64,000 nt of DNA, taken from assembly GCA_046563655.1 (NCBI GenBank), contig CM102288.1:4960001-5024000 (forward strand), in the 5' to 3' direction. Shown in pieces: positions 4,707 to 64,000 of this stretch; position 1 is the first letter of the stretch; the number at the start of each line of letters is the position of its first letter. The DNA comes from Yuukianura sp. NJ FZ-2021. Taxonomy: Eukaryota. The notes beneath the pieces were generated by a model that searched no databases, had not been told where the DNA came from, and worked only from the letters and a program-made list of their open reading frames with translations. The position numbers and the translations under genes were made by a program.

Positions 4707-4776
4707 TGCAGAGCAAAAGATATAACTTGGAATTGGAAAGATTGTTCGTTTTAAGTTATCTGGTTGTCGTTAGTTT

Positions 4777-27599: not shown

Positions 27600-27814
27600 A
27601 AGCTAACAAACCGCGGCGGGAATAAGCAAAAGTTATTAATGCCGCACAATGTAGCCACTGCGGCCATCTTTTGTTGCTGCAACACGCGACTAAGATTGAG
27701 GTTCAAGTATTGTATCGGCTTTAATGAACTTACTTTTAATATAAAGAAATTATTAGTGTTTCCTAATACATAATTATTATAATAATAATTAATAATCAAA
27801 TCACATTAAAATCG

Positions 27815-28504: not shown

Positions 28505-29391
28505 ATGGCTGGAAACATTGGATTTGTGTTTGACCAACCAGTGACACCCATGTACCCTTACCCACCACAGCAGCCATTCCCAAACTGTCAACATCAACAA
28601 AGTCCAACATGGCACGAGCCACCTTTCCCACCACCGTTGCCACCATTCGACCAAGGACACACGCATTGGCACAACCAAGGTCCACCATATCAACCCAATG
28701 GAGATCAAGTAATCATTTATCCTTTGCTGGATAATTATAATAAGCTTCGATTTATATTTTATATGAGTAGTATAACTAATTTAAATAATTTGATTTCTGC
28801 GTAAGATTTCTTTACATAAAGAAAGTTGTAGTTTTGAAAACTGAAATTAATTCAAGAATTATAAAAATTAATATGAACAATTACAATTTTAAAGATGAAA
28901 TTTTATGGAGCTGGGCCTGCTGCATATCCTGAACAGAATCAGATAGTTCCTTACCACAACTATAACTCTGCAGAGGTTTGTAAATCTATAATATATTTCT
29001 TATGCAATTCTACACTATCTTGACATATAATAGTTTTAAAAAAATTAGCAGATGGCAACGTCACAAGTAGATTCTTATGGCGCTGGCCACGGGCAGCATG
29101 GCAGCGGACACGGAATTCCTGGCGGGAAGCTTGGCGTTTTAGGCGGAGCAGCAGTTGCTGGAGCAGGAACGGCATTGGCGGTACAAATTTCAATTCAGAT
29201 AAATAGCTGGATTTTAGCGGAAACAAACACGTTGAATGAATTTAACTATGACATGTTTTTAATTAAAGATCCAACTACTTCCAAAGAAACTAAAGAAAAA
29301 CAAATTGGTCAAATACGGGCTTCCGCTCGCAGGTGCTGGAGCTGCTGGATACAAATTGAACCAAATGAACAACCAAGGCGGGAAATATTAA
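28505..29391 (+). CDS. Uncharacterised ~178-aa protein with a Pro/Gln/His-rich N-terminus and glycine-zipper-like C-terminus (exons 28505-28708, 28895-28975, 29052-29180, 29269-29391)
   Basis: Four phase-0 GT-AG joined exons give one open frame; GGKLGVLGGAAVAGAGTALA-IQLLPKKLKKNKLVKYGLPLAGAGAAGY. Confidence 0.65.
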
Positions 29392-29996
29392 TTTTGTTCA
29401 CAACTTTACCGTTAATATAAGCCTATAGCATATAATTCAACTTATTGTAGTATTTTACCTTCTAATTAAAATGACCATTCAATTTAACTAAAAACGACTA
29501 GGATTTGTCCATGCTTGATTTTTTCAGTTCCGTGGGAATCGTTTAGCCATCATCTTATTCATCCTTCTTTGTCTGTCTGTCCGTCTGTCGCTCCCGCTCA
29601 AGTTTATCTCAAAAAATACTGGATCTACTAATTAGTTCGAGCTAACCGGCTCTCAGCGGTTACGTGTCCTTCAAAGTCATTCGATTATCTTGTCAAAGTG
29701 TCTATTACAAAATAATTAGTGGAGCAGAACTTAACTATTATTGCTATTGTTGCGTGATTGCAGCAGTAGCTATGGCTGAAGTAGTGAAAATAGGCAAAGA
29801 AAGACAAAAATTGTTTGATTGTATTGTTTCCAAATTACATTGGTCATTAATTCCTTCCGTTGATCACCACATTTGCTCTAATTATTATCATCCTGCATAT
29901 TCTTCAACGTATTTAAGAAATAAGTTTTGTAAAAAAAACGGCTTTGTTTGTGGTGTAGTTGAAAAAAAACATTATTTTTGGAAGCAAACAACTAAA

Positions 29997-31994
29997 ATGT
30001 TGGCTGTATTTTTACCGCTGATTATAGGCGTAGTAATGTAAGAAACACTTCAGTTTTGAAAATTTTTACTTTCCTTAATTACTCCAACAAAATAAGAAAT
30101 ATGTTAATATATTGCAATTTGAAAATTACATAGTTTTAGGGAGGCAAATGCAGCGGATCCACCTAATGTGTACAGATCATACCAGACAACAATTTACTGC
30201 AATGCATCTCTTCCAGTCCAAACTCCAGCGGATGTTGGCGAACTGCAACAAATTGTTCAACAGGCAATTGCCAACGGTCAAACAGTCAAAGCATTTGGAC
30301 CAAAACATTCCATTACTGATGTCATTTGTACTTATGGGGTTCCCATTTCTATGCTCAACATTGACTACGCACGCGTCAATTCCGACGGCACCGCAACTTT
30401 TGGAGCTGGAATCACACTGTCAAATGCGATGCAGTTTCTTGAGGCTCAAAACTTGTCCCTTATACTAGTTCCAACGTTCGGTAAAGAAAAACTTGTTCGG
30501 AATTAGAAATTTTAATGTTTGCACAGTTTTTTGAATTTTTCATGACTTTAAAATGTTAACTTTCAAAGGTGGAATTTCTATTGGCGGAGCCATTGGGACT
30601 GGGGCGCATGGCTCGTCTCTGCGTCATCCTTCATCCCTGTCGGACCAAATCATGCGCATGAGCGTAATTATCGGAAACGGCTCATTGGTTGAAATAGCCG
30701 GCTCGGAACTCGATCTGTTCCGAGTACATCTCGGTCTCCTTGGAATAGTCGTTGATGTCACCTTTAAAACTGTCCCGTTGTTTAAAATGACTGTTCAAAA
30801 CGTACTGATGAATGACTCTTTGTTATTTGACGGATCCATTCCTACTACTGCTGAGCAGTACGATTTCTACCAACTCTGGTGGTTTCCACAATCAAACGGC
30901 ATTGTCGTAGGAACTGGAAATTATACTTCCACAGAAACCCCGGGAAACGCCTACTCAAATTTCATTCCACAGGAAAATCGTTTAACAATCGGCATCGGAA
31001 GTGGTGCATTTGAAAAGATGCAAAAGGAACGTGCCACGGATGCGCTTGTAGGGTTTTCGGCTATGACCGAATTGTCGCTATTTAAAAGAGTTTTTGGAAA
31101 ACCGCCAATTTTTTCTGACAATAACAAACTCGCTAACCCTGCTACCGGTTATGCTTGGCGTCTTCAGTCAAATCTTTGTGAGGAAAAACTGTGGACAAGT
31201 TGCAGTTGGCAAAACGGAGACGATTCGGTATTTCCCGAAGAGAGTTCGGTGGCATTCGACATTTCAGAATTTACCGGCGTTATGACTATGATCAGAAACA
31301 TTGTAAAGGAGTACCCCGCTGCGTTTGCGCTTGTTGGACTGTACATTCGTTTTGCGCCTGCGTCACCTGCCACAATGGCGATTTCCACTGGCAGAACAAC
31401 TTTTACAGTAGAATGGGCGACGCCCATGCGCAAGGATCCATTCAACTCTCCCAAAGATGGCATTGCTACATACCAGGCTATTTTACAAGAAATGGTTGTT
31501 AAAAAAATTATATAAATTTCTGCTTTTTTACAAAATTTTAAGCATTCTGTATTAATTTTTAGGTGACCAATTATGGTGGTAGACCGCATTGGGGCAAAAA
31601 TGGGCTTCACTTTTTATCGGAATCTGTGATTTCCATGGCAGTCCCGAATAGGCAGAAATTCATTTCCGCTATGAAAACGTACGATCCAAATGGAGTTTTT
31701 TCGAATGCCTTTGGACAGCGTATGCTTGGAGTTTCTGATGTCCAGGACAAAGACCCTCAAGCGACGCGTTGCGCATTACAAGATTACTGTGTCTGCGCAT
31801 CCAACGCTGACTGTGGACCGTATCAAATCTGTGGGGAAATTAATGGTTTCCCAGTTTGCAAAGATGATACTAGTTTGACTGAAGGCATTTTCATTGTAAA
31901 ACCAAATTACGTGTTTCCAAACCTGGATAACTACACGGAAATGCTGGACATTGTTATGTCTTCGCCTTCGGCTACGTTTTCTATCCTATTTTGA
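29997..31994 (+). CDS. Secreted FAD-linked oxidase, plant-type L-gulonolactone oxidase (GULLO)-like, copy 1 (4 exons)
   Basis: Signal peptide MLAVFLPLIIGVVIFREANA; KHSITDVIC FAD-His region; GGAIGTGAHGSSL; LGLLGIVVDVTF; GGRPHWGKN; YDPNGVFSN; Cys-rich tail RCALQDYCVCASNADC. Confidence 0.85.
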
Positions 31995-32303
31995 AATTCT
32001 GAATTACAAATTCTTAATCACTGGGACGGGATTGAAAAGTTCTTTGAAATAAAATTGAATGAACGACTCTACGTTTTAAATAGTTTTCCTAAAATCGAAG
32101 TAAAAAATATGGAGTAAAAAATAGTTTTAAGATTGCGTAGAGTAAAATTCTATCTAAATTCAATTTTATTTTTTCTAGGTTTCATTTTTTCAATTCAACA
32201 ACATTTTTTTAGTTCTGAATTTATTTGCGTCGTTTTCCAACCTGCGACCGTCTTGTTGTTAAAGCGTTGTTAAACTATGTTATATCCTTTCTTTTTCTAC
32301 TAA

Positions 32304-33845
32304 TTACTTGTACATGAGCAACATATTCATCGTCAATTGCAAGCTGTTGTGTATAGTTGAAATTACAATTGAATTTTGAAAGGTGTACAGAGACCCTGCT
32401 GTACAGACTATGACTGGGCATGAGCGTCGAAATGCTCTGAGCCACTTGGATTGTTGCGGCGTAATGTCTATTCCGAGATAAACATTGCAGTTCATATCTT
32501 CCAAGATAGCCGTGCTATCTTCCTGTACTTTTCCTGCAAGCACCAATGGCGCAATTGCTTCCGACAGGCACCGGAAGTAGCAAGCAATAAAGATCAGGTA
32601 CGCATGAACCGGGATCCAATACAACTTGATAATTGCAAACAGCAGAATTGAAATGAGTCCAAGCAGAAACATTGGGTTCCAGGATAAGTAGAAGACGAAA
32701 CTTTCCCTCAACAAATTCATTGTTCTTTGACATGTTCTGTAGTGTGTAAAAGTGGCCATAAGACCGTCGATATCCTTGATTCCCATTTGGTTTCTGCCGG
32801 TACGCCCCACCCGGGCATCTTTCAACTCCCGTCGCACCCAAGCCAGTCCCAGGAAAACCGAAATGGAGTTGAACGCCATCTGAAACAGCATCACAGTGAC
32901 GCTGTACGTTTCCAGCAGGAGGTACGGCAATTTCCGGCTCCAGGGCTCTACGTCATCACCCGGGTTGACACAAGCAAAAATTAAACTTGACCAAAAGTTC
33001 GGCGTGCATGGAATTTCAATTAACCCGACACCGTGAGCTAATAAAAAAAAGTATTGAAATTTTTTTTAGGTTTCGTACAATTCTTGGTTTTTGAATAGCA
33101 CTACCTTTCTGCGCAAACGATGTGGAAAAAAGTTTTTTTAAATGCTGAAAATTTTGAGAAAAAAAATTACCGGGCCCGTTGATGGCGATGATGAAACCAG
33201 TGAAAATTGTACACGCAGAAACAAAGTCAGTCTTTGTCTGTTCACCTGAAAGTAAAATTTGATGTACAATCAAAATATGTATACTTTAAGAAAAGAAAAA
33301 ATAAACATTTCCTAAATATGCCACTTAAACACTTTAAATTAAAATTGGTCTTCACAAAACCTGAGATGTAACTCCGTTTCCTAACAAATTATTTGGCTAT
33401 TTGGCAGAAATAGGATAGTTTTATTAGATTAATCGTTTACTTTTTTTCATTCCGAATTTTTTTTTCCAAAACCGAAATTCTCACCTCTGTGTTTAATGAC
33501 GTAAGCCCAGAATGAATTGACAAACTTCTTGATTTGGGTTCCAGTCAGTTGGAATTGAATGAAGCAAGTAGCATTGAGAAGATGAGCTAAAATCCAAACG
33601 CCATGAATTACTTTTTGCCGTTCCGGAATTTCCTCCCAGTTGGAGGCAGTAGCAAATCGGAAAATAGTGAAGACTGTAATGATGTGTTGAAATATTCGAT
33701 GAATGTCGTAAAGGAAAATGTGGAACCGTGATGCCTGTCGAAGCTCAAACCGAATTGGATCCCATTTGTACGGGTAGATTCGGAGGACATTGCACCCTGC
33801 GTGCAATACAAAACTCATGGAACGAATTGCTCGTTCTGTTAGCAT
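32304..33845 (-). CDS. Divergent 7TM chemoreceptor (gustatory-receptor-like), copy 1 (3 exons)
   Basis: About 400 aa after splicing, multiple TM helices, N-terminal YPYKWD and C-terminal RSCPVIVCTAGSLYTF...QLTMNMLL in the GR/OR-superfamily layout. Confidence 0.6.
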
Positions 33846-34329
33846 GATTATTTGTTGGAAACTATGCGCAACTTCTTGCGGAAAAATTCTTTTTATATAC
33901 GCCCGAACTTTTTATTTCGTGACAGCAAAAATTAGAGAAAATTAATAAAAATTGGCTTGGATATCTTTACATCGAATCACTAATTTTCTAGGAAAAGAAA
34001 AATTTTCACCAAAGTTATTTCCGTGCAATTATGGTTATTACGAAGAAATTTAAATTATTTAGTGGCAGTGGAAACGAAGAATAAATAATTGTTAATTAGT
34101 TATAAACAGAGATGTCAAAAATATGTGCTAAAACCCCCGAAATATGGACAAAAAAATATGTTTTTTAAAAATCGCCCAAATATTTACTTATTTAACATGA
34201 AGGGCATGGGCAAATAAATATATATTTAGAAACAAAAACCCCCCAAATATTTTTTTTAACATTACGGGCATGGAGACTAAATATCTTTGACATCTCTGGT
34301 TATAAAGTAACAGCAAAAGTTCCAGAAAT

Positions 34330-35450
34330 CGCACTAATTCCTGCTGAATTTTGTACAAGAAAATTGTCAGCCCACAAAGCATCTGATTTACAGCGATAGC
34401 TTACCAAAACACGACTAAACGCCGGACATTTTGATAACTCAATATTTTTACTATTACTACGAAGCGGATGACAGGACAAACTGACAAGGACAAGCTGGAC
34501 AACTGACGGACGAGAGAGTGGTGAAAACAAAGAACGAAACCGAATTCGTTCAAATTTTGAAAATTTAATATTTTGATCATTCCCACTAGAATCACAACTC
34601 GCCCCACCTCACATTTTTACGTAGTCTGTGAACAGTAACATGTAACCACGAAAATCATGAACTCTGACCCAATCTTCCGGTACACTTCTTGAAGAATTGG
34701 TACGACGCTCAGAAAACTACAGCCAGCTTTTCATTCCTTTTATTAACACATGCTGCTGTAACAGCGGGCAGTTTTTTTTAAAACAAATTCTCAAATGCTT
34801 TGCCATAGAAGGCAAAGTAAGAACAAATCCGATGATAATAGAAGAATTGAAATCCTACGTGAACGTGTACGTTTAGTCTGATTTTTGGTTTCCCGCGCAA
34901 ATTTTTCTCTAGGGGGCAAAGTTTTTCGAACTTTCACCATACGTGAACTTGTAAGTTTGATAAGTTTGAACGTACAAACTCATGATTCCAAGTTCAGTCG
35001 TACGTTTGGTTGCTCTCTTCAGTTTTTTTCCCAAATCCGTTCACCAATTAACTCTTAGAAGTTTGTTTTTTAGTGGTAATTAACCAGTTAGTGGAGTTTT
35101 CAGTGCCTTACGTCAAAATGAAACACGATTTGACTTTAATTCAAATCCCAAGTACGATATTGAACTTCTAATTGAAACGGAGGGTCTTAATCCTTTTTCT
35201 GCTGCTACGGAAAAGCTTAGGAAGGAAGTAGCCAAGAATCTGAATTCCGAATTCAAAATGGATGTTACCGGTCGCATATATGAAACAAAACCTTCCAGAA
35301 ATACTCTGATTTCTGGGGGAAACTTTAAGTTTTGGTGAAAAAGCTGCCCGCTGCGTTAGTTAGCAGCGCCCGCTAATGCGAAAAATGTGGCTGTAGTTTT
35401 ATAAGCATCGTACCCATCTTTCGTGAAGTGCCCCCAAAGCCTAATCGAAA
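34330..35450. mobile_element. Dispersed repeat with internal inverted arms; copies also at ~45190-45865 and, reversed, ~50950-51500
   Basis: Shared attggtacgacgctcagaaaactac, gctaatgcgaaaa.tgtgg..gtagtttt and ccttccagaaat blocks at three loci; boundaries approximate. Confidence 0.6.
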
Positions 35451-35455
35451 AATTC

Positions 35456-35863
35456 CAGTCTTGTACTGTCTTCCGTTTTTCCGAAGAGAAACTGCTGATT
35501 CGTCTTCCAGTCTTACGTTTTCCAGAGATTGTTTTGTCTTCCGGTCTTCCGTCTTCCAGAGCATTTTTCGTCTTCCGTTCTTGCGGCTTCCGTCTTCCAG
35601 CGAATTTTTTGTCTTCCGTCTTCCAGAGAATTTTTCGTCTTCCAGTCTTCCGGAGGGTGTTTTGTCATAGTCTTCCGACTTCCATAGGCTGTTTTGCCTT
35701 CCGTCTTCCAGAGAATTTCTCGTCTTCCGGTCTTCCGTCTTCCAGGGAATTTTTTGTCTTCTGGCCTTCCGTCTTCCAGAGAATTTTTCGTCTTCCAGCT
35801 TTCCGTCTTCAAATCTTCCGGAAGTCGGAAGACGTCTTCCATCCGGAAGACAGTACATCACTG
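35456..35863. repeat. Array of CGTCTTCC-based short repeats bounded by inverted termini (MITE-like); second copy ~45867-46294
   Basis: cagtcttgtactgtcttccg ... cggaagacagtacatcactg; dense (cg)tcttcc units between. Confidence 0.75.
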
Positions 35864-36310
35864 CCAGTGATGCACTTTTTAACAACCAACGAAAAATAGA
35901 AATTAAAATGAAAAACTTACACGTTTTTAATTTGAATTGCGTCCTTGGTGGAAACGCGACCTTCAAGAATTTAGAAGTGAACTGATTTTTTACGATATAA
36001 TTTTCCTCGTTATCGGTTTGCCACTGTTTGACCAAAATACACTGCAGAACAATAACTCCAATTAATTGCAACCTTTTTTTGGCGACAGCTGGATAAAACT
36101 GCAGGGTTTAACCATTGTTTAACCAAATTATACTACAGAAAGTAAATTATAGAAAACCATAAATACCAATTCGAGAACAAAGGTCAATGGAATTGCATTT
36201 TTTTTATACTTTTTTTTTTTTGAAAACTACAGTCTACTAAACGGTGAATTTATATCTTTGGGAAATCCAAGAATCCGGATGAGGTGAAAGGCAGGCCGGT
36301 TGTGTTCAAT

Positions 36311-37886
36311 TTAGCACTTGTTTTGACGGTATTTCACGGTTTTCAAAACCAGCGGTGCATCTTTGCCTGGCATCTTTGTAACATCGAATCCCAAGCGTTT
36401 AAAGTGTTTCAACATCTTCTTTTTGAATTTCTCATCATCCGACTTGTCCTCGTTGGAGGCAACCCAGAAGAATTGGTCATACCCAAATACGCACATGACT
36501 CCAGCAATGTACGTCTTGTTATCCGTCTTCGTCACAACAAAGTCACCACCAACTGCAAGCATGCACAATTTGTTTTATTATTCTGGCGATGCATATCTAT
36601 GTCAGATTGGGACTAACAAGAGGTGTCAAATTCCACCTTAAATGTGTATTAAATCAACAGCGCATGGCAGGTTCAAGTTTGCATTTCCAGGACGTTTTTA
36701 TAATTTCGATTTTAAACAAGCGATACGCCCTTCACGTTCAATTTTGTGCATGGCACATTACTTATCAGTAGTTGCACATAGATGTCGAATTTTGAAGCTG
36801 GGTAAATGATATTGTTATGTGACTGCAATTTCTGCATTTGTAAAGAACTGCACATGTATCCTAAAAATGGTGGACTACTTGGAAACAAATTGAGGGGTTT
36901 AGACAAAGAAGTGCAATATTGTTGCTAGGAGAAATTGAATTAGAAATGTATGTAAAAGAGATTGAAATAACAAATCGAAGTAAATTGTCTTCTTATACTA
37001 ACGCGAAATAGGCCTCTCTTCGTCTAAACCTTTCAATTGAGCATACTTGAAAACGTAATAATTTTGAGGCGAGTGCAAAGCGTTCAGAACTCAATTTGAA
37101 CAACATTTTGGTTTAAACCTTTTAACATTTTCGTTACTGAACATTTTACCACTTTTTTCGTTACTGAACATATGCGTGACCAAAAACGCGCATATCTCCG
37201 CACTGAAAATTAAAGGTGCATGTGAAATTGAAATTTTGGTGCATGGTTCTTCAGAAAACCGTTTTTCACCGTTTTTGTTTTGCGGTTTGCCGCCGGCCGG
37301 TCTAAACGTAATATCAATTGTCATCTTCCCCAGAACACCATCGCAGAACAGCGCTCAACCCTTTTGAGATTATCGTAAGGTTGATCTTATAGAAATTACA
37401 GTATAATAATAATAATAATCACAAAGAGAAATATCATTTCCTTACATGGTCTGTTGCCTGAATTCCCTGGAAGGAGTACACATCCTCCTTGACCACTCGG
37501 GGAGTAAGTACATTCCCAGTCAGCAGAAAATGACTTCCCGTTCATGTCACCACCTAGCTCGTAGCACACCGTCTTTGGAACCGTTCGACCTTGAAATGGT
37601 CTCCATTTTTCATCCCCATCCTCGCAGTTGGTGCAGTCAGAGTGAAATACAAAGTGAAGTTTTCCTTGTCGAACCTACAAAAAATATTAGAAATCCAAAT
37701 TTTTGTATATTTTCTTTTAAAACTTTCGAGTACTGAAAATTTACAATTTGGAAAGGAAAAGATTTATAAACTTCTTACAAACTCGTCTGCGAAAGCAGCC
37801 TGTTTCTTGATTTTCAAACATTCCTTCATTCCGTCACTCCATGGCAATACGACGCATAACAGGCCCAGCGTAATTGCGAACTTCAT
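36311..37886 (-). CDS. Secreted Cys-rich lipocalin-like protein, copy 1 (3 exons, ~190 aa)
   Basis: MKFAITLGLLCVVLPWSDG signal peptide; in-frame GT-AG splicing; VTKTDNKTYIAGVMCVFGYDQFFWVAS...LKHFKRLGFD lipocalin-like C-terminal half. Confidence 0.65.
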
Positions 37887-38129
37887 TGTTCAATCGGTTC
37901 GTTCCAAGCTGTATGCTTCTTTGCAAGCTCCCTTGCAAAGAAATAAATAAGACTGATGCTGAATTGCATATTCAAGAGCGTTTATAAAGCTGTTCAAACA
38001 ATAGCAACACAATAGAAGCGAATTTACACAAGGCTAAATTTATCGTGTTTGAAATTGTCGGCAAGGTTAAGCAATAAACAATTGAAATTAGTCCGTTTGT
38101 TCAAATATGCCGCCGTATTGTAGTAACGG

Positions 38130-39506
38130 CCTGCACATAAGCTCCTGGGAACGTCCGATTAGAGTCCCAAAATACTATTCGGGACGTGAGCCGTTTGTTC
38201 TCTCCCCCGGACCTCCCTCGTATTTTCGCATTAGGACATGTCCGCAGAAATTAATGAATCTCCCAATAGTGTCCCAGGGATGACCCGCTCGGAATCAAAT
38301 AAAGTCATGTGACTTTTGCCCCTACGCAGTTTAATTTTAACTTTCCAGGTGATCCTAACGCATTACATCACCATTTGCTCACTGCTTTTGTCTATTCTGT
38401 CTCAAGTCAGTATGAATTTTATTGATTCTAAAAATCAACTAATTTAGTTAAAGTTAACTCGTTTGGAGATTTTTGTCGCAGCACTAGAGAAAACAACAGT
38501 GTACAGAATTCTCACGGATACGATTACTTCGGTAAGTATTGCAAAATCTTTGATACGATTATACCACTCAGACTTTGCACTCATGTGTTTACACAGCAAT
38601 TACATTTCGGTTAATTTGAGATTATTGTTTCATTAGTGGTTTGCAGTCCTACCATTGTTCATTTCAAATGCCTCGTAAAACAATTGGCAAACAGAGACAG
38701 GCACATGACTCATCTTCCAGTACAATCGTTGGAAAAAGCAAGCGACATTGCAACGTGTGACGAGCTTGAGCTGAAACTTACTGAAGATGAGTTCAGACAA
38801 TCAGCTGTAAGTCTGTTCAACGTTTCGTTGTAAATGAGAATGTAAAAACTGTCATAACACTATTTTCGTTTGATAGATTGCAAAGCTACTGGAGTTAGGA
38901 GGAAACAGCTGCTAAACAACTAAACTGTAAGAGGGATAATGACAGCACTATGGACGGAGGACTTGCTTCGACAGTTTAGTCTTCACGGGAGAAAAGGAAA
39001 AAGGCAATATTTACAAATACAAGCTTACCAATTGGTACTCTGTAAGTTGTTTCTAAAATTTCGGTGATTTCGATTAGAAACTGAGATTTCAGAGGTTTAC
39101 TCTTTCTTTGATTTCAGATTGTGCTAAACGTAACATGAGGGTGAAGATGGATGAAGCGGAGATACGGAAGGCAATTTCCAGTGTTTTTAGGCATACTTAG
39201 TACTCTTGCCATCATTCACATGCAATCCTTTCAATTAAAATAAAATTATTTTTGTCAAAAAATGTAAACTTTGTTTTTATTTATTATTTTTCGCGCGTCT
39301 AGAATGTACGCGTGGGTTAGCTCCATGGTACATCCCAAAACGATCTCCCATGGAGCAAAAAGAAGTTGGTCCCAGGGAGTTTGAAAAGTGGGCATTTCGG
39401 ATGTTTACAGGCAGTTATAGGGAGTTTCAGAATATCCCTGGGATTTGATTGGGACATTCGGTTGAAATCCACGGGATGTTCATGGGACGAAGTTGTGCTA
39501 ACTGGG
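38130..39506 (+). mobile_element. Non-autonomous DNA transposon (CMC/EnSpm-like) with a 2-bp GG TSD; present in unit 1 only
   Basis: Empty site taacGGgataa in unit 2 (48553-48563); right end gttgtgctaactggg; gggac/gtccc subterminal repeats; left end degenerate. Confidence 0.75.
38636..39200 (+). pseudogene. Frameshifted, intron-containing DUF4806/BEN-like gene remnant inside the transposon
   Basis: LLELGG..(frame break)..TVRGIMTALWTEDLLRQFSLHGRKGKRQY...EAEIRKAISSVFRHT*; stops in the spliced frame near 38913. Confidence 0.5.
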
Positions 39507-39916
39507 GGGATAATTCCCGGGTTCCTTTGAACGGAATAAGTTTACCTCTTCTTTTCACAAAAAAAAACAAAATTAAGGTTTTTTCTATTGTTTGAAGACC
39601 GGACGTCTTAATGACAAAAATTCCGACCTTGTTCTCATTAAATGCTACCGTGTAGTTTGCTTTATTGTTTCATGCATAAAATTGAACCTTGAGGGGGCTG
39701 TACACGTGGAAGCAACAGGCTGCAATTAACGTAAATGAAATCTGTTCAATATGTACAATGTTATGGTACAGTAATGTACAGTAATGTACCTAGAATGGTA
39801 TAAATGCACAATGTGCTAAATTAAGCCCATAAGTTATAGGGTTGAGTATGGCTCAAAGTCAAAAGGTTGCAAACAAAAACCTGAACCCTGCTATGCACTG
39901 TTTAAAAAATTAGCAG

Positions 39917-40254
39917 ATGGCAACGTCACAAGGAGATTCTTATGGCCGTGGCCACGGACAGCATGGCAGCGGACACGGAATTCCTGGCGGGAAGCTGGGC
40001 GTTGTAGGTGGAGCAGCAGTTGCTGGAGCAGGAACGGCATTGGCGGTACAAATTTCTACTCAGAAAAATAATAATCAGATAAAGTTTAAACACGTTTAAT
40101 GAATTCAACTGTTTCGTGTTTTATATTAAAGATCCAACTACTTCCCAAGAAACTAAAGAAAAACAAATTGGTCAAATACGGTCTTCCACTCGCAGGCGCT
40201 GGAGCTGCTGGATACAAATTGAACCAAATGAACAACCAAGGCGGGAAATATTAA
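39917..40254 (+). CDS. 5'-truncated duplicate (exons 3-4 only, 83 aa) of the glycine-zipper-like gene; possibly a pseudogene
   Basis: Exon 3 begins with an in-frame ATG; frame and splice sites intact; exons 1-2 lie outside the duplicated unit. Confidence 0.45.
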
Positions 40255-40866
40255 TTTTTTTCACAAGCTTACCATTAACTTAAGCCAGAAGTATATATAA
40301 TAGAATTCAGCATGTTGTAGTAATCTTACATTCTAATTCAAATGACCTATCAATTTAATTAAGAACGAGTAGAATTTGTCGTTGCCCGATTTTTTTAGTT
40401 TCGTGGGAATCGTCTAACCATCATCTTATTCATCCTTCTTTGTCTGTCTGTCCGTCTGTCACTCCCGTTCAAGGTTATCGCAAAAAATACTGGACCGCCT
40501 AATTAGTTCGAGCTAACCGGCTCTCAGCGGTTGCCTGTCCTTCAAAGTCATTCGATTATCTTGTCGTGTACCTATTATAAAATAATTAGTGCAGCAGAAA
40601 TAAAGCATTATTGTTATTGTTGCGTTACTACATTAGCTATGGCTGCAATCGTGAAAATAGGCCTAGAAAGACAAAAATTGTTTGATTATATTATTTCCTA
40701 ATTATACTGGTCATTAATTCGTCCCGTTGATCACCACATTTGCTCTAAATTATTACCATCATACAAATTTTTCAACGTATTTAAGGAATAAGGTTTGTAA
40801 AAAAAACGCTTTTAAGTTTGCGGTGTAATTCAAACACCTTATATTTAGAAGCAAAAAAAAACGAAA

Positions 40867-42867
40867 ATGTTGCCTGTATTTTTACCGCTGATTATAGGCG
40901 TAGCAGTGTAAGAAACACTTCAGTTTTGAAAAATTTTGCTTTCCTTAATTACTTTAACAAAATAAGAAATGTGTTAATTTATTGCAATTTGAAAATAACA
41001 TAGTTTTAGGGAGGGAATTGCAGCGGATCCACCTAATGTGTACAGATCATACCAAACAACAATTTACTGCAATGCATCTGTTCCAGTCCAAACTCCGGCG
41101 GATGTTGGTGAACTGCAACAAATTGTTCAACAGGCAATTGCCAACGGCCAAACAGTCAAAGCATTTGGACCGAAACATTCCATCACTGACGTCATTTGTA
41201 CTTATGGAGTTCCCATTTCTATGCTCAACATTGACTACGCACGCGTCAATTCCGACGGCACCGCAACTTTTGGCGCAGGAATAACACTGTCAAATGCTAT
41301 GCAGTTTCTTGAAGCTCAAAACTTGTCGCTTATACTAGTTCCAACTTTCGGTAAGTTCGAAAAACTTCTCTGGAATTTGAATTGAGAAAGTTTTGCACCA
41401 GTTTTTGAATTTTTCATGACATTAAAATATTGACTTTCAAAGGTGGAATTTCCATTGGCGGAGCCATTGGGACAGGAGCGCATGGCTCTTCTCTGCGTCA
41501 TCCGTCATCCCTGTCAGACCAAATCATGCGCATGAGCGTAATTATCGGAAACGGCTCATTGGTTGAAATAGCCGGCTCGGAACTCGATCTGTTCCGAGTA
41601 CATCTCGGTCTCCTTGGAATAGTCGTTGATGTCACCTTTAAAACTGTCCCGTTGTTTAAAATGACTGTTCAAAACGTACTGATGAATGACTCTTTGTTAT
41701 TTGACGGATCCATTCCTACTACTGCTGAGCAGTACGATTTCTACCAACTCTGGTGGTTTCCACAATCAAACGGCATTGTCGTAGGAACTGGAAATTATAC
41801 TTCCACAGAAACCCCGGGAAACGCCTACTCAAATTTCATTCCACAGGAAAATCGTTTAACAATCGGCATCGGAAGTGGTGCATTTGAAAAGATGCAAAAG
41901 GAACGTGCCACGGATGCGCTTGTAGGGTTTTCGGCTATGACCGAATTGTCGCTATTTAAAAGAGTTTTTGGAAAACCGCCAATTTTTTCTGACAATAACA
42001 AACTCGCTAACCCTGCTACCGGTTATGCTTGGCGTCTTCAGTCAAATCTTTGTGAGGAAAAACTGTGGACAAGTTGCAGTTGGCAAAACGGAGACGATTC
42101 GGTATTTCCCGAAGAGAGTTCGGTGGCATTCGACATTTCAGAATTTACCGGCGTTATGACTATGATCAGAAACATTGTGAAGGAATATCCCGCTGCGTTT
42201 GCTCTCGTTGGACTGTACATTCGTTTTGCGCCTGCGTCGCCCGCCACAATGGCAATTTCCACTGGCAGAACAACTTTTACAGTAGAATGGGCGACACCCA
42301 TGCGCAAGGATCCATTCAACTCTCCCAAAGATGGCATTGCTACATACCAAGCTATTTTACAAGAAATGGTTGTTAAAAAAATTATATTAATTTATGCTTT
42401 TTTACAAAATTTTAAGCATTCCGTATTAATTTTAGGTGACCAATTATGGTGGTAGACCGCATTGGGGCAAAAATGGGCTTCACTTTTTATCGGAATCGGT
42501 GATTTCCATGGCAGTCCCGAATAGGCACAAATTCATTTCTGCAATGAAAACGTACGATCCAAATGGAGTTTTTTCGAATGCCTTTGGACAGCGTATGCTT
42601 GGAGTTTCTGATGTCCAGGACAAAGACCCTCAAGCGACGCGTTGCGCATTACAAGATTACTGTGTCTGCGCATCCAACGCTGACTGTGGACCGTATCAAA
42701 TCTGTGGGGAAATTAATGGTTTCCCAGTTTGTAAAGATGATTCCAGTGTGACTGAAGGCATTTTTATTGTAAAACCAAATTACGTGTTTCCAAACCTGGA
42801 TAACTACACGGAAATGTTGGACATTGTTATGTCTTCGCCTTCGGCTACGTTTTCTATCCTATTTTGA
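40867..42867 (+). CDS. Secreted plant-type GULLO-like FAD oxidase, copy 2 (4 exons)
   Basis: Mature protein nearly identical to copy 1; same introns. Confidence 0.85.
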
Positions 42868-43140
42868 AATTCTGAATTACACATTCTTAATCACTGGGAG
42901 TGAAAAGTTCTTTGAAATAAAATTGAATGAAAGCAAAAAAAATAGTTTTAAGGTTGCGTAGAGTAATAATAATCTAAATTCAATTATATTTTTTCTAGGT
43001 TTCATTTTTTCAATTCAACAACATTTTTTTAGTTCTCAATTTATTTGCGTCGTTTCCAAACTTGCGACCGTCTTGTTGTTAAGACGTGGTTAAACTACAG
43101 ACTAAACTCTGTATGTTATGTCCTTTCTTTTTTCTAGTGA

Positions 43141-44701
43141 TTACTTGTACATGAGCAACATATTCATCGTCAATTGCAAGCTGTTGTGTATAGTTGAAAT
43201 TACAATTGAATTTTGAAAGGTATACAGAGACCCTGCTGTACAGACTATGACTGGGCATGAGCGTCGAAATGCTCTGAGCCACTTGGATTGTTGCGGCGTA
43301 ATGTCTATTCCGAGATATACATTGCAGTTCATATCCTCCAAGATAGCCGTGCTATCCTCCTGTACTTTTCCTGCAAGCACTAATGGCGCAATTGCTTCCG
43401 ACAGGCACCGGAAGTAGCAAGCAATAAAGATCAGGTACGCATGAACCGGGATCCAATACAGCTTAATAATTGCAAACAGCAGAATTGAAATAAGTCCAAG
43501 CAGAAACATTGGGTTCCAGGATAAGTAGAAGACGAAACTTTCCCTCAACAAATTCATTGTCCTTTGACATGTTCTGTAGTGTGTAAAAGTGGCCATAAGA
43601 CCGTCGATATCCTTGATTCCCATTTGGTTTCTGCCGGTACGCCCAACCCGCGCGTCTTTCAATTCCCGCCGCACCCACGCCAGTCCGAGGAAAACAGAAA
43701 TGGAGTTGAACGCCATCTGAAACAGCATCACAGTGACGCTGTACGTTTCCAGCAGGAGGTATGGCAATTTCCGGCTCCAGGGCTCTACGTCATCACCCGG
43801 GTTGACACAAGCAAAAATCAAACTTGACCAAAAGTTCGGCGTGCATGGAATTTCAATTAATCCGACACCATGAGCTATAATAAAAAAAAAGTATGGAAAA
43901 ATTTTTAGGATTCGTAACTTTCTTGCTTTTAGTGTGTGCTTTTTGAATAGAACTACTTTTCTGTGCAAACGATGTGAAAAAAAGTTTGTTTGTTTTTTTT
44001 TTTGAAAAAAAAAATTAATAAATTACCGGGCCCATTGATAGCGATGATAAAGCCGGTAAAAATTGTACACGCAGAAACAAAGTCAGTCTTTGTTTGTTCA
44101 CCTGTAAGTAAAATTTAATGTACTTATAATCAAAATATGCACAAAAATTTAAAAAAAGAAAAAATAAACTTTTCCTAAATATGCCACTTAAATACTTTAA
44201 CTTAAAATTCGTCTTCACAAAACTCCTGAGATGTAACTTCTGTTCCTAACAAATTATTTGCAGAAATATTATGTTTTTATCAGCCTAATTGTTTAACTTT
44301 TTTCATTCCGAATTTTTTTTTTCAAAACCGAAATTCTCACCTCTGTGTTTAATGACGTAAGCCCAGAATGAATTGACAAACTTCTTGATTTGCATTCCAG
44401 TCAGTTGGAATTGAATGAAGCAAGTAGCATTGAGAAGATGAGCCAAAATCCAAACGCCATGAATTACTTTTTGACGTTCCGGAATTTCCTCCCAGTTGGA
44501 AGCAGTAGCAAATCGGAAAATAGTGAAGACTGTAATGATGTGTTGAAATATTCGATGAATGTCGTAAAGGAAAATGTGGAACCGTGATGCCTGTCGAAGC
44601 TCAAACCGAATTGGATCCCATTTGTATGGGTAGATTCGGAGGACGTTGCACCCTGCGTGCAATACAAAACTCATAGAACGAATTGCTCGTTCTGTTAGCA
44701 T
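43141..44701 (-). CDS. Divergent 7TM chemoreceptor-like, copy 2 (3 exons)
   Basis: Protein nearly identical to copy 1, with mostly synonymous changes. Confidence 0.6.
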
Positions 44702-46742
44702 GATTATTTGTTGGAAACTATGCGCAACTTCTTGCGGAAAAATTCTTTTTATATACGCCCGAACTTTTTATTTCGTGACAGCAAAGATTAGAGAAAATTA
44801 ATAAAAATTGGCTTGGATATCTTTACATCGAATCACTAATTTTCTAGGAAAAGAAAAATTTTCACCAAAGTTATTTCCGTGCAATTATGGTTATTACGAA
44901 AAAATTTGAATTATTTAGTGGCAGTGGAAACGAAGAATAAATAATTGTTAATTAGTTATAAACAGAGATGTCAAAAATATGTGCTAAAAAACCCCGAAAT
45001 ATGGACAAAAAAAATATGTTTCTTAAAAATCGCCCAAATATTTACTTATTTAACATTAAGGGCAGGGGCAAATAAATAAATATTTAGAAACAAAAACCCC
45101 CCAAATATTTTTTTTAACATTACGGGCATGGAGACTAAATATGTTTGACATCTCTGGTTATAAAGTAACAGCAAAAGTTCCAGAAATCGCACTAATTCCT
45201 GCTGAATTTTGTACAAGAAAATTGTCAGCCCACAAAGCATCTGATTTACAGCGATAGCTTACCAAAACACGACTAAACGCCGGACATTTTGATAACTCAA
45301 TATTTTTACTATTACTACGAAGCGGATGACAGGACAAACTGACAAGGACAACTGACTGACGAGAGAGTGGTGAAAACAAAGAACGAAACCGAATTCGTTC
45401 AAATTTTGAAAATTTAATATTTTGATCATTCCCACTAGAATCACAACTCGCCCCACCTCACATTTTTACGTAGTCTGTGAACAGTAACATGTAACCACGA
45501 AAATCATGAACTCTGACCCAATCTTCCGGTACACTTCTTGAAGAATTGGTACGACGCTCAGAAAACTACAGCCAGCTTTTCATTCCTTTTCGTATTAACA
45601 CATGCTGCTGTAACAGCGGGCATTTTTTTTTAAAACAAATTCTCAAATGCTTTGCCATAGAAGGCAAAGTAAGCACAAATCCTATGATATGTGAAACAAA
45701 ACCTTCCAGAAATACTCTAATTTCTGGGAGAAACTTTAAGTTTTGGTGAACAAGCTGCCCGCTGCGTTAGTTAGCAGCGCCCGCTAATGCGAAAAATGTG
45801 GCTGTAGTTTTATAAGCATCGTACCCATCTTTCATGAAGTGCCCCCAAAGCCTAATCGAAAAATTCCAGTCTTGTACTGTCTTCCGTCTTCCGGTTTTCC
45901 GAAGAGAAACTGCTGATTCGTCTTCCAGTCTTACGTTTTCCAGAGATTGTTTCGTCTTCCGGTCTTCCGTCTTCCAGAGCATTTTTCGTCTTCCGTTCTT
46001 GCGGCTTCCGTCTTCCAGCGAATTTTTTGTCTTCCGTCTTCCAGAGAATTTTTCGTCTTCCAGTCTTCCGGAGGGTGTTTTGTCATAGTCTTCCGACTTC
46101 CATAGGCTGTTTTGCCTTCCGTCTTCCAGAGAATTTTTCGTCTTCCGGTCTTCCGTCTTCCAGGGAATTTTTTGTCTTCTGGCCATCCGTCTTCCAGAGA
46201 ATTTTTCGTCTTCCAGCTTTCCGACTTCAAATCTTCCGGAAGTCGGAAGAATGAAGCCGGAAGACGTCTTCCATCCGGAAGACAGTACATCACTGCTAGT
46301 GATGTACTTTTTAACAACCAACGAAAAATAGAAATTAAAATGAAAAACTTACACGTTTTTAATTTGAATTGCGTCCGTGGTGGAAACGCGACCTTTTTGA
46401 AGAATTTAGAAGTGAACTGATTTTTTTTACGATATAATTTTCCTCGTTATCGGTTTGCCACTGTTTGACCAAAATACACTGCAGAACAATACTCCAATTA
46501 ATTGCAACCTTTTTTTTGGCGACAGCTGGATAAAACTGCAGGGTTTAACCATCGTTTAACCAAATTATACTACAGAAAGTAAGTTATAGAAAACCATAAA
46601 TACCAATTCGAGAACAAAGGTCAATGGAATTGCATTTTTTTTATTCTTTTTTTTTTTTGAAAACTACAGTCTACTAAACGGCGAATTTATATCTGTGGGA
46701 AATCCAAGAATCCGGATGAGGTGAAAGGCAGGCCGGTTGTGT

Positions 46743-63136: not shown

Positions 63137-64000
63137 ATGAAGGTCTCCTACATAGGATTGGTTTTTGGACTAATTGCGTGGTATTTAAACAGTATTTAAT
63201 TGTTCTCAACACATTTGTATTCCTCGAATAAAAATCTGAACATTTAATTATTTAAGAATTTTAACAACTATAACTCATTATTTATCTCATCTTTCACTTT
63301 TTTGCATTACTTTAGCCTTCAATGTAGTGAAACTGTGCAGACGAAAGTTTACAGCTCCTTCAATCAACAAATTTACTGCAACCCGAGTTCAAAAATACTT
63401 TACCCGGAAGATACAGAAGAAATTTTGAAAATTTTGGGCAAAGCAAATATTGAGGGCAAAACTGTGAAGGCATTGGGAGCACAACACTCATCCACGGATA
63501 CAATCTGCACCGATGGAATTCCAATTTCAATGCGCAGATTCCGTGGAGCAGCTCTGAGCAGTGACGGAAATGAAGCTACTTTTGGTGCCGGAATAGAGTT
63601 GGGCGCAGCAATGGAGTTTCTCGAAAGACATAACCGTATGATTCCAATTGTACCAGCATATAGTAAGCACTAAAATTTTAAAAAATTTAACTACAAAAAT
63701 GAAGCAAAATATTTAGCGCCAGATTTGAAAAATAAAATTGTATTTTAGGTAAAATTACTATCGGTGGAGCAATTGGAACTGGAGCGCATGGATCTTCCCT
63801 GCGTCACTATGCTACCATATCTGATCATGTGACTGCTGTAACCGTCATTACTGGAAACGGTACGCTGCTGACCGTGACCTCTATTGAAGACGTCAACCAC
63901 TTTAAGGTCCACCTCGGCCTGCTTGGCATAGTTGTCAACGTGACCCTGAAAACTCTCCCACTACGCAAACTCACAGTTCATAATGAGTTGAGAGATGAAG
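63137..64000 (+). CDS. Secreted plant-type GULLO-like FAD oxidase, diverged copy 3 (runs off the window)
   Basis: Signal peptide MKVSYIGLVFGLIACLQC; QHSSTDTICTDGIPISM; ITIGGAIGTGAHGSSLRH; first two introns at equivalent positions and the same phases as copies 1 and 2. Confidence 0.85.

What the first reader, a model, noticed from the sequence alone, without database searches (positions are those of the whole stretch)
29997..31994. Secreted plant-type L-gulonolactone oxidase-like genes in an arthropod: candidate domesticated horizontal transfer
Seen: a spliced gene with a signal peptide, HSIT...C, GTGAHGSSL, PHWGKN and a Cys-rich tail CALQDYCVCASNADC. Recalled knowledge: animal GULO has HWAK and lacks this tail, while plant GULLO proteins are secreted, have TGAHGSSL and PHWGKN, and end in CALEGLCICSxDxHC. 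Canonical GULO is generally reported absent from insects and other pancrustaceans. The gene sits among arthropod genes (GR, IR) and has short AT-rich introns, which argues against contamination. Inference: acquired from a plant, fungal, oomycete or other microbial donor; it could provide extracellular ascorbate/erythorbate synthesis or H2O2 generation from aldonolactones. Substrate cannot be determined from sequence.
Basis: partly seen in the sequence, partly recalled or inferred. Interest (0 to 1): 0.88.

Follow-up and report, generated by a model that had tools for sequence, protein, structure and literature searches.

The report
Fungal-type secreted gulonolactone-oxidase-like genes in an arthropod
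Three neighbouring, intron-bearing genes in an arthropod chromosome encode a secreted flavin oxidase of the plant "GULLO" type whose nearest non-animal relatives are early-diverging fungi, so it is probably an old gene transfer that springtails and fungus gnats share, and part of this was already in print.

Summary
Positions 29997-31994 (+) hold a four-exon, 579-aa gene with a signal-like N-terminus, all four quoted motifs and FAD_binding_4 + ALO domains. There are three copies: a 98%-identical twin at 40867-42867 inside a ~10-kb tandem duplication (dN/dS 0.067), and a ~48%-identical copy at 63137 that runs off the window.

The family is the plant-GULLO type: ten conserved cysteines and a six-Cys tail. 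The window's genes lie in a subfamily with early-diverging fungi and one green alga, not with plants. A plant-plus-arthropod clade is rejected (p-AU 6e-11).

Named animal members are only springtails and sciarid fungus gnats: 18 of 18 named animal rows.

Best reading: an old fungus-to-springtail-lineage transfer that expanded by duplication. The product is probably a covalent-FAD, H2O2-forming sugar-lactone or sugar oxidase acting in the secretory pathway. The substrate is unknown.

Prior art lowers the novelty. "HWGK" GULO-like genes were tabulated in three springtails in 2019, and a GULLO4-like Orchesella cincta gene sits in a 2016 list of transferred genes. Vertical descent with massive loss is not excluded (about 0.2).

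The parts
29997..30037 (+). Copy 1, exon 1: start codon and most of the signal-like segment; the intron that follows is phase 2
30140..30480 (+). Copy 1, exon 2: N-terminal part of the FAD_binding_4 domain. Holds His70 of the HS motif (the covalent-FAD position) and Pro125 (the gatekeeper position).
   Evidence: Pfam 35.9 bits against a cut-off of 26.4; alignments to GalDH 8qnr/8qnc; conservation
30569..31494 (+). Copy 1, exon 3: GTGAHGSSL, the end of the FAD domain and the cap (substrate) domain. Holds the Cys331/Cys339 loop and Arg388.
31563..31994 (+). Copy 1, exon 4: PHWGKN (Lys448), the end of the ALO domain, the six-Cys tail (residues 506-535), a 44-aa C-terminal extension and the stop codon
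   Evidence: ALO 37.6 bits; PF22906 only 14.2 bits against a cut-off of 27; all six Cys aligned with plant and fungal rows
32048..32053 (+). AATAAA 54 nt after the stop codon of copy 1: a candidate polyadenylation signal
   Evidence: read; its use is inferred, not tested
40867..42867 (+). Copy 2, with exons 40867-40907, 41010-41350, 41443-42368 and 42436-42867. It is 579 aa long and 570 of 579 residues are identical to copy 1.
   Evidence: dS 0.101, dN 0.0068
63137..64000 (+). Copy 3, cut by the window end. Exons 63137-63180, 63316-63662 and 63749 onward give 214 aa read, 48% identical to copy 1. Its first two introns sit at the same places and in the same phases as in copy 1.
29035..48960 (.). 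Tandem segmental duplication: 29035-39906 matches 39901-48960 at 93-96% nucleotide identity. It carries copies 1 and 2 together with their unassigned neighbour ORFs.
   Evidence: self-blastn

Best explanation
The window holds three tandem paralogues of a secreted flavoprotein oxidase of the VAO/aldonolactone-oxidoreductase superfamily. They are of the GULLO type: signal peptide, FAD_binding_4 domain, ALO domain and a six-cysteine C-terminal mini-domain.

The genes are resident host genes under purifying selection. In animals the family is known only from springtails and sciarid fungus gnats. It sits in a subfamily otherwise made of early-diverging fungi.

The most likely history (inferred) has four steps. 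A fungal gene was transferred anciently into the springtail lineage, or into that of a close soil-arthropod relative. It gained spliceosomal introns. It duplicated into at least three paralogue clades and local tandem arrays. One clade is shared with Sciaridae, probably by arthropod-to-arthropod transfer.

The likely mechanism is inferred from conserved residues. FAD is bound covalently to His70. Arg388 and Lys448 hold the substrate's 2-alkoxide while a hydride passes to flavin N5. The reduced flavin is re-oxidised by O2, giving H2O2 (Pro at the gatekeeper position). The enzyme works in the lumen of the secretory pathway or outside the cell, stabilised by up to five disulfides.

The substrate is not known; candidates are an aldono-1,4-lactone, a sugar or a polyol. 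Peroxide generation for antimicrobial or food-processing purposes is the leading guess. Ascorbate synthesis is a minority possibility.
For: The genes are real and functional.
- The gene models are intact and there are three copies.
- dN/dS between copies 1 and 2 is 0.067, with 38 synonymous and 9 non-synonymous differences.
- Intron positions are shared by copies only 48% identical.
- GC is 0.43-0.46 and GC3 0.37-0.44, inside the neighbours' range.
- DNA contigs of a second study span introns 2 and 3 (records 19 and 20).

Family.
- Pfam finds FAD_binding_4 + ALO.
- The best NCBIfam model for 9 of 10 full-length non-plant family members scanned is TIGR01677 pln_FAD_oxido, aligned end to end. 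Folsomia GULLO5 (P0251) scored 0.2 bits higher on TIGR01678.
- All 10 Cys of copy 1 are conserved in nearly all rows that cover them, and in every one of the 8 plant rows. The tail is absent from all 6 outgroup rows.
- The family profile aligns full length to GalDH 8qnr at E 3.4e-38.
- An AlphaFold model of the closest full-length homologue, P0004, has pLDDT 93.3. Its tail blocks score 95-97, and GalDH is the best fold match at E 1e-30.

Catalytic residues.
- The His aligns to the GalDH Leu.
- Pro aligns to GalDH Ala113.
- Arg aligns to Arg388.
- The Lys of HWGK aligns to the Lys of HWAK.
- The roles of these residues come from PMC11099136 and PMC11505616 (passages read).

Distribution.
- In one search, 29 of 94 hits name an organism. 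The 18 animal rows are 6 springtail and 12 sciarid.
- In some searches, 14 of 30 look-ups gave organisms: plants, chytrids, Mucoromycota, Bryopsis, two bacteria, Orchesella and Folsomia.

Tree (careful IQ-TREE, 55 rows).
- All arthropod rows fall with Calcarisporiella, Cunninghamella, Basidiobolus, two chytrids and Bryopsis (support 99/95).
- Plants lie outside this clade (100/100).
- Arthropods + plants as one clade is rejected (p-AU 6.2e-11).
- Arthropod monophyly is not rejected (p 0.30).
- Monophyly of the 7 named fungal rows is marginally rejected (p 0.04).
- Copy 1 is 41% identical to the Mucoromycota proteins. It is 35-39% identical to springtail paralogues of the other two clades and 26-28% identical to plants.
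Against: - The backbone inside the 35-row clade is unresolved, so neither a donor nor a single transfer is shown.
- The AU groups for searches were chosen after seeing trees, and p 0.04 is weak.
- The family is ancient and wide (plants, a green alga, fungi, a nucleariid), which leaves room for vertical descent with loss.
- 65 of the 94 hits and 16 of the 30 look-ups carry no organism, so other animals may hide among them.
- PMC6582580 (supplement 1) also lists HWGK GULO-like CDSs in the amphipod Hyalella azteca and the earthworm Eisenia fetida. I could not test which family they belong to.
- No animal GULO, fungal ALO or GalDH sequence was in my trees. They were compared only through NCBIfam models and PDB alignments.
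- The host was not identified. Its DDX55 has no close named relative (53-55% to pancrustaceans), and no NCBI springtail row is among the 120 listed.
- On function, Pro at the gatekeeper position does not guarantee oxidase activity. Arabidopsis GULLO5 has Pro yet showed none (PMC11505616).
- The nectar GULLO-like protein was reported flavin-free and only weakly active (PMC6077269).
- GalDH Glu386 is replaced here by Tyr.
Confidence: 0.65

Rival explanations
1. Vertical descent. A secreted GULLO-type gene was present in the opisthokont or early eukaryotic ancestor. It was kept in springtails and a few other animals and lost nearly everywhere else in Metazoa.
For: - The family occurs in plants, a green alga, several fungal phyla and a nucleariid.
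- Relations inside the 35-row clade are unresolved.
- Fungal monophyly is rejected only at p 0.04, with a group chosen after the fact.
- Composition is native and old introns are shared.
- HWGK GULO-like CDSs are tabulated for Hyalella and Eisenia too.
Against: - All 18 named animal rows are springtails or Sciaridae, although the collection holds many annotated animal proteomes.
- The nucleariid and two other chytrids fall outside the clade that holds the arthropod rows.
- Copy 1 is closer to Mucoromycota proteins (41%) than to two of the three springtail paralogue clades.
- Very many independent losses would be required.
Confidence: 0.2
2. Transfer from a land plant, the first donor named by the first reader.
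For: - The architecture and tail motif are shared with plant GULLOs.
- TIGR01677, built on plant proteins, is the best NCBIfam model.
Against: - Plants form their own 100/100 clade outside the arthropod-fungal clade.
- Forcing arthropods + plants together costs 99 log-likelihood units (p-AU 6.2e-11).
- Identity to plant proteins is only 26-28%.
- TIGR01677 scores are 117-200 bits against 578-904 for plants and a cut-off of 383.
Confidence: 0.02
3. Contaminant fungal DNA or an assembly artefact.
For: The nearest non-animal relatives are fungal.
Against: - Three copies are interleaved with arthropod genes on one contig.
- The AT-rich short introns and base composition match the neighbours.
- The copies lie inside a 10-kb tandem duplication that also carries host ORFs.
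- DNA contigs from two studies hold the intron-bearing gene.
- The closest proteins of all are from springtail genome assemblies.
Confidence: 0.01
4. A divergent orthologue of canonical animal GULO.
For: - It is in the same superfamily, with an HWxK motif and the covalent-FAD His.
Against: - TIGR01678 aligns only the FAD half in 9 of the 10 full-length non-plant proteins scanned, at 111-170 bits against a cut-off of 396.8.
- The motif is HWGK rather than HWAK, which PMC6582580 reports for all true animal GULOs.
- A signal peptide and Cys tail are present.
- No named animal GULO appeared among the best hits.
Confidence: 0.01

Closest known systems
Plant GULLO (GulLO) proteins: Arabidopsis GULLO1-7 and the Mucuna nectar protein MsGulLO (NCBIfam TIGR01677, Pfam PF22906 tail)
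   Same: - Signal peptide, FAD_binding_4 and ALO domains, and an HWGK motif.
- His in the HS motif and mostly Pro at the gatekeeper position.
- All ten cysteines, including the six of the C-terminal mini-domain.
- They are secreted or cell-wall located (PMC6077269 and PMC11505616, passages read).
   Different: - Only 26-28% identical.
- Below the TIGR01677 and PF22906 cut-offs.
- A separate, strongly supported clade.
- The window proteins carry an extra 44-aa C-terminal extension.
Uncharacterised GULLO-like proteins of early-diverging fungi (Calcarisporiella, Cunninghamella, Basidiobolus, Irineochytrium, Phlyctochytrium)
   Same: - Same subfamily clade (99/95).
- 30-41% identity.
- Same architecture and cysteines.
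- Signal-like N-termini in 10 of 12 fungal rows.
   Different: None has been characterised. Which fungal lineage is nearest is unresolved.
Animal L-gulonolactone oxidase and fungal D-arabinonolactone oxidase (TIGR01678)
   Same: - VAO fold and a covalent-FAD His.
- A non-Ala gatekeeper, as in oxidases.
- The Arg and Lys that hold the substrate are conserved (PMC11099136).
   Different: - GULO is a membrane-associated microsomal enzyme of about 440 aa, without a cleaved signal peptide or Cys tail (recalled, apart from the detergent requirement noted in PMC11099136).
- HWAK rather than HWGK.
- The model matches only the N-terminal half.
Plant L-galactono-1,4-lactone dehydrogenase (PDB 8qmy, 8qnr, 7sml)
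   Same: It is the best solved relative by sequence (E 3.4e-38) and by fold (E 1e-30, TM 0.63/0.73). The gating-loop Cys, Arg388 and Lys456 align.
   Different: GalDH is mitochondrial, binds FAD non-covalently (Leu where His stands here), has the Ala113 gatekeeper, keeps Glu386 (Tyr here) and has no tail. Identity is 17-19%.
Known foreign genes of springtails and Sciaridae (beta-lactam genes, GH45, terpene synthases, AOX; 'alien' P450s and TPS of Bradysia)
   Same: The taxa are the same and so is the pattern: a microbial-type enzyme, introns gained, expansion after arrival, and sharing among soil arthropods (PMC4987106, PMC11665903; passages read).
   Different: This is a different enzyme family. 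No publication found in my searches treats it on its own.

Membership tests
VAO/PCMH flavoprotein superfamily | FAD_binding_4 (PF01565) domain | tested here: met
   Exon 2 scores 35.9 bits against a cut-off of 26.4. Exon 3 carries the last 40 positions of the domain.
Aldonolactone oxidoreductases (ALO, PF04030) | ALO domain with the C-terminal HWxK motif | tested here: met
   Exon 4 scores 37.6 bits against a cut-off of 23.1. HWGK is at residues 445-448.
Aldonolactone oxidoreductases | The catalytic Arg388/Lys456 pair (GalDH numbering) that holds the substrate alkoxide | tested here: met
   The profile alignment to 8qnr puts the family's invariant RF Arg on Arg388 and the HWGK Lys on the HWAK Lys. 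Arg is present in every row that covers the column. Lys is present in nearly all, including both complete window copies.
Oxidase subclass (GULO/ALO-like) | His for covalent 8-alpha-N1-histidyl FAD, and a non-Ala gatekeeper | tested here: met
   His70 aligns to the GalDH Leu. Pro125 aligns to Ala113, identified through the A113G chain 8qnc. Whether FAD is really bound covalently, and whether O2 is really used, cannot be tested here.
Plant GULLO subfamily (NCBIfam TIGR01677 pln_FAD_oxido) | Score at or above the curated cut-off of 383.1 bits | tested here: not met
   Window exons score 63.5 and 53.5 bits. Full-length springtail, sciarid and fungal homologues score 117-200 bits; plants score 578-904. 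The whole spliced window protein was not scanned.
GULLO2-like C-terminal domain (Pfam PF22906) | Score at or above 27 bits; six-Cys pattern | tested here: inconclusive
   The score is 14.2 bits (E 0.035), below the cut-off. All six Cys nevertheless align with the plant, fungal and alga rows.
Canonical animal GULO / fungal ALO (NCBIfam TIGR01678) | Full-length match at or above 396.8 bits; HWAK motif | tested here: not met
   Homologues score 111-170 bits. Only about positions 2-241 of the model's 438 align in 9 of the 10 full-length non-plant proteins scanned; the nucleariid row P0016 aligned over positions 2-437. The motif here is HWGK.
Horizontally acquired gene | Nested among non-animal sequences, absent from related animals, integrated in host DNA | tested here: inconclusive
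   Integration is met. Grouping with fungi to the exclusion of plants is met. Nesting inside fungi is only marginal (p 0.04). Absence from other animals rests on named rows only.

The most novel reading that the evidence does not exclude
Springtails, and through them sciarid fungus gnats, replaced the terminal enzyme of vitamin C synthesis that Pancrustacea lost. The replacement would be a fungal GULLO-type oxidase working in the lumen of the secretory pathway, fed by their duplicated regucalcin/gluconolactonase genes. That would give a concrete, testable answer to how at least some GULO-less hexapods make ascorbate.
Probability: 0.12. Interest if true: 0.85.

Novelty: new member of a known kind. 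Interest (0 to 1): 0.5.

Why it matters
Pancrustaceans lack canonical GULO, yet some insects still make ascorbate by an unknown route (PMC9233358, PMC11377030). Here is an intact, selected, multi-copy aldonolactone-oxidase-like family in exactly such animals. It keeps every residue known to matter for catalysis, so it is an obvious candidate to test.

Even if it only makes peroxide, it adds two things. It adds a fungal-type secreted oxidase to the foreign enzymes of springtails. It also adds a third gene family, after terpene synthases and P450s, that links Sciaridae with non-insect soil arthropods.

It also shows that the "plant-specific" GULLO architecture is widespread in early-diverging fungi, where nobody has characterised it.

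Tried and rejected
- The window's own genome is not held.
- Earlier findings of this scan returned nothing by place, by sequence or by words.
- No RNA holder was listed for the gene, so expression and splicing remain untested.
- Read laying on three DNA runs gave only short contigs. None spans the whole stretch, and a contig cannot be assigned to copy 1 or copy 2.
- Rfam found no match in the window.
- Pfam found no family for the ORFs next to copies 1 and 2, even at E up to 1.
- The host could not be named from DDX55. The best named hits are 53-55% identical; unnamed rows reach 80, 77 and 65%.
- The two supplementary files held for the Folsomia genome paper contain none of gulonolactone, arabinono, PF04030, ALO or IPR007173.
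- Literature search was badly posed, because 'Gullo' is also a surname, and gave nothing useful. One search found no paper that holds 'gulonolactone' together with a sciarid term among the 12 listed.
- One MAFFT run hit the time limit and was repeated with faster settings.
- Two bacterial rows meant as an outgroup fell inside the ingroup in the quick tree and were dropped.
- A GPI-type C-terminal signal was considered. The last 40 residues reach only a mean hydropathy of 1.6, so I do not claim one.
Full report
**Observation.** The stretch 29997-31994 (+) is a clean four-exon gene with exons 29997-30037, 30140-30480, 30569-31494 and 31563-31994. All introns are GT..AG, and the product is 579 aa without a stop. 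Pfam finds FAD_binding_4 on exon 2 (35.9 bits, E 7.4e-09) and ALO on exon 4 (37.6 bits, E 2.6e-09). The introns are 102, 88 and 68 bp with GC 0.16-0.24, against exon GC 0.45. An AATAAA lies 54 nt after the stop. The N-terminus is a hydrophobic signal-like segment followed by A-N-A. No dedicated signal-peptide predictor was available.

**Copies.** tblastn with the spliced protein finds two more copies.
- Copy 2 (40867-42867) has the same four-exon structure. It is identical to copy 1 at 570 of 579 residues.
- Copies 1 and 2 lie in a tandem segmental duplication, 29035-39906 against 39901-48960, at 93-96% nucleotide identity.
- Their coding sequences differ at 47 of 1737 nucleotides: 38 synonymous and 9 non-synonymous. 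This gives dS 0.101, dN 0.0068 and dN/dS 0.067, so both are kept by selection.
- Copy 3 starts at 63137 and runs off the window, with 214 aa read. It is 48% identical to copy 1.
- Its first two introns sit at the same codon positions and phases as in copy 1, in the signal segment and just before the I(S/T)IGGAIGTGAHGSSL motif. Those introns therefore predate an old duplication.

**Host DNA.** The contig carries the following host genes.
- UQ_con (911-1369, -).
- A DDX55-type DEAD-box helicase (2852-4769, -).
- ATG9 (18035-18442, -).
- C2H2 zinc fingers (22174-25001, +).
- Two 7tm_7 gustatory-receptor exons (51568-52137 and 54600-55154, +).
- An MFS transporter (58529-59692, -).
- A 634-aa Lig_chan ORF (60826-62727, +).

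GC and GC3 of the oxidase exons (0.43-0.46 and 0.37-0.44) lie within the neighbours' range (0.41-0.49 and 0.38-0.64). DNA contigs from a second, independent study cover 30279-30819 and 31052-31989, that is, across introns 2 and 3 (records 19 and 20). Contamination is therefore not a serious option.

Its DDX55 is 53-55% identical to the best named hits (krill, lobster, stick insect, cockroach). No chelicerate and no NCBI springtail is among the 120 rows listed. Unnamed rows reach 80, 77 and 65%. I call it a pancrustacean-like arthropod, probably a springtail. The reason is that its oxidase genes fall in a clade whose only named members are Orchesella and Folsomia (support 95). That is an inference.

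**Family.**
- For 9 of 10 full-length non-plant family members scanned, the best NCBIfam model is TIGR01677 (pln_FAD_oxido), aligned end to end. The exception is Folsomia GULLO5 (P0251), which scored 0.2 bits higher on TIGR01678.
- These TIGR01677 scores are 117-200 bits, against a cut-off of 383 and plant scores of 578-904.
- TIGR01678 (animal GULO and yeast ALO) matches only the FAD half in 9 of those 10, at 111-170 bits against a cut-off of 396.8. The nucleariid row aligned full length.
- The tail matches Pfam PF22906 (GULLO2-like third domain) only weakly, at 14.2 bits against a cut-off of 27.
- In an 86-row alignment, all ten cysteines of copy 1 are conserved in nearly all rows that cover them, and in every one of the 8 plant rows. 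The six tail cysteines are absent from all 6 outgroup rows.
- Signal-like N-termini are general: 7 of 8 springtail, 6 of 7 sciarid, 10 of 12 fungal and 7 of 8 plant rows.
- An AlphaFold model of the closest full-length homologue (Folsomia P0004, 51% identical) has mean pLDDT 93.3 and pTM 0.92, with the tail blocks at 95-97.
- Its best solved neighbours are GalDH (E 1e-30), then alditol oxidase, cholesterol oxidase and DprE1.

**Active site.** The family profile aligns full length to ancestral GalDH 8qnr (E 3.4e-38). The A113G chain 8qnc pins down position 113.
- The His of the HS motif (His70) stands where GalDH has the Leu that prevents covalent flavinylation.
- Pro125 stands at the gatekeeper Ala113.
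- The first Cys of a conserved Cys331/Cys339 pair stands at the gating-loop Cys340.
- The invariant Arg of the RF motif stands at Arg388.
- The Lys of HWGK stands at the Lys of HWAK.
- GalDH Glu386 is Tyr here.

The roles of these residues come from PMC11099136 (passages read). PMC11505616 (passages read) states that Gly or Pro at the gatekeeper marks oxidases. It also notes that Arabidopsis GULLO5, which has Pro, showed no oxidase activity. So an active, covalently flavinylated, O2-reactive enzyme is likely but not shown.

**Relatives.**
- Exon 3 alone finds springtail proteins first (Orchesella dallaii, Folsomia candida; 47-49% identity). Next come Calcarisporiella, then Sciaridae, then a chytrid.
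- A 13-sequence profile gave 94 hits at E up to 1e-10. Of these, 29 name an organism: 12 sciarid, 6 springtail, 7 fungal, 1 nucleariid and 3 bacterial.
- The exhaustive profile search found 14,559 proteins at E up to 0.001 and listed the best 150.
- Of 30 representatives looked up, 14 gave organisms: Cannabis, Adiantum, Ginkgo, Avena, Kappamyces, Globomyces, Calcarisporiella, Orchesella, Folsomia GULLO5, Bryopsis (two), Jimgerdemannia, a Babeliales bacterium and a Myxococcota bacterium.

**Trees.**
- A FastTree used 186 rows: all stored proteins of 400 aa or more at that point plus copies 1 and 2. The shorter proteins among the 235 then stored were dropped.
- A quick IQ-TREE used 85 rows that I chose.
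- A careful IQ-TREE (LG+G4) used 55 rows by 581 columns. I dropped 29 redundant or long rows and the partial copy 3 after seeing the earlier trees.
- All three agree on the robust parts.
- Every arthropod row falls in a clade with Calcarisporiella, Cunninghamella, Basidiobolus, Irineochytrium, Phlyctochytrium and Bryopsis (99/95).
- Plants are a separate 100/100 clade, together with the chytrids Kappamyces and Globomyces and unnamed rows. The nucleariid is outside both.
- Springtail rows form three paralogue clades.
- The Sciaridae (100/98) are sister to a group holding Folsomia GULLO5 (joint support 100/99).
- Relations among these groups inside the 35-row clade are unresolved.

**AU tests.**
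- Arthropod monophyly is not rejected (p 0.30).
- Arthropods plus plants as one clade is rejected (delta lnL 99, p 6.2e-11).
- Monophyly of the seven named fungal rows of the clade is marginally rejected (p 0.04).
- The groups of the first and third tests were defined after seeing trees.

**Pairwise identities.** Copy 1 is 45-51% identical to its own springtail clade and 41% to the two Mucoromycota proteins. It is 35-39% identical to the other springtail clades, 34-37% to sciarids and 26-28% to plants. Folsomia GULLO5 is 48-58% identical to sciarid proteins, which is as close as sciarid paralogues are to each other.

**History.** The simplest account is an old transfer from an early-diverging fungus into the springtail lineage, followed by intron gain, amelioration and repeated duplication. 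One clade later passed between springtails and Sciaridae. That last step has published parallels: terpene synthases from mites, and P450s from springtails or mites (PMC11665903, passages read).

Vertical descent with massive loss remains possible at about 0.2. The family is ancient and the backbone is weak. In addition, 65 of the 94 hits carry no organism.

**Function.** What is known of the plant relatives is modest.
- Over-expression of Arabidopsis GULLO2, 3 and 5 raised conversion of L-gulonolactone to ascorbate in tobacco cells.
- GULLO5 is in the cell wall.
- The secreted nectar protein MsGulLO made no ascorbate. It had weak oxidase activity on lactones, glucose and fructose and was reported flavin-free.

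These points come from PMC11066809, PMC11505616 and PMC6077269 (passages read). I therefore favour a secreted or lumenal peroxide-forming oxidase of sugar lactones or sugars. Ascorbate synthesis is a minority reading, and the substrate cannot be read from sequence.

**Prior art.**
- PMC6582580 (supplement 1, read whole) lists HWGK GULO-like CDSs in Folsomia candida (two), Holacanthella duospinosa (two) and Orchesella cincta. It also lists them in Hyalella azteca and Eisenia fetida.
- Its main text treats such sequences as other FAD-domain genes lying outside the fungal outgroup, and states that true animal GULOs have HWAK.
- PMC4987106 lists Ocin01_08663-PA among the 34 'oxidation-reduction' genes in what is evidently its supplementary table of GO enrichment among horizontally transferred genes, table S7 (supplement file 2 part 9 and main-text passages). 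The best Swiss-Prot hit of that gene is Arabidopsis GULLO4. I did not verify that it belongs to the same subfamily.
- NCBI already names the Folsomia and sciarid proteins 'L-gulonolactone oxidase 1/2/5'.
- Searches found no paper that analyses this family as a transfer, links it to fungi or to Sciaridae, or tests its activity.

**Verdict.** The donor should be corrected from plant to fungal type. The gene sits in a known family of springtails and fungus gnats, and novelty is moderate.

Noticed in passing
window 6619-7280: A tandem repeat with a period of about 177 bp, in roughly 3.7 copies at 98% identity. The self-matches are offset by 177 and 354 bp.
   Followed up: no
window 27801-28067 and 33942-34742: Contig depth in all three DNA runs jumps from hundreds to thousands here (for example 6854 and 7554 in X1), with many joints and loose ends. 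These are probably high-copy repeats or transposon fragments. The second one lies inside the duplicated block.
   Followed up: no
window 2852-4769 (-): The DDX55-type helicase has no close named relative. It is 53-55% identical to the best named hits (krill, lobster, stick insect, cockroach) and about 52% to vertebrates and molluscs. Unnamed rows reach 80, 77 and 65%. The host lineage seems poorly represented among annotated genomes.
   Followed up: partly
window 32307-33065 (-) and 43144-44022 (-): The long ORFs just downstream of copies 1 and 2 are duplicated with them. The one scanned at relaxed threshold (32307-33065) matched no Pfam family even at E up to 1, and 43144-44022 matched none at E up to 0.001. 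The 7tm_7 hits lie 20 kb further on.
   Followed up: partly
window 56224-56838 (+): An ORF of 205 aa gives only sub-threshold, low-complexity-type Pfam hits: Apolipoprotein, bacterial collagen middle region and DUF3470. It is probably a repetitive coding or non-coding stretch.
   Followed up: no
related proteins P0251, P0010-P0014, P0022-P0030: Sciarid fungus-gnat GULLO-like proteins are sister to a group holding Folsomia GULLO5 (support 100/99) and are 48-58% identical to it. This would be a third gene family, after terpene synthases and P450s, that links Sciaridae with non-insect soil arthropods.
   Followed up: partly
related proteins P0105, P0110 (Bryopsis sp.): The green alga Bryopsis has GULLO-type proteins that group with the fungal/arthropod subfamily rather than with land plants. 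They lack the covalent-FAD His, having Lys or Leu instead.
   Followed up: no
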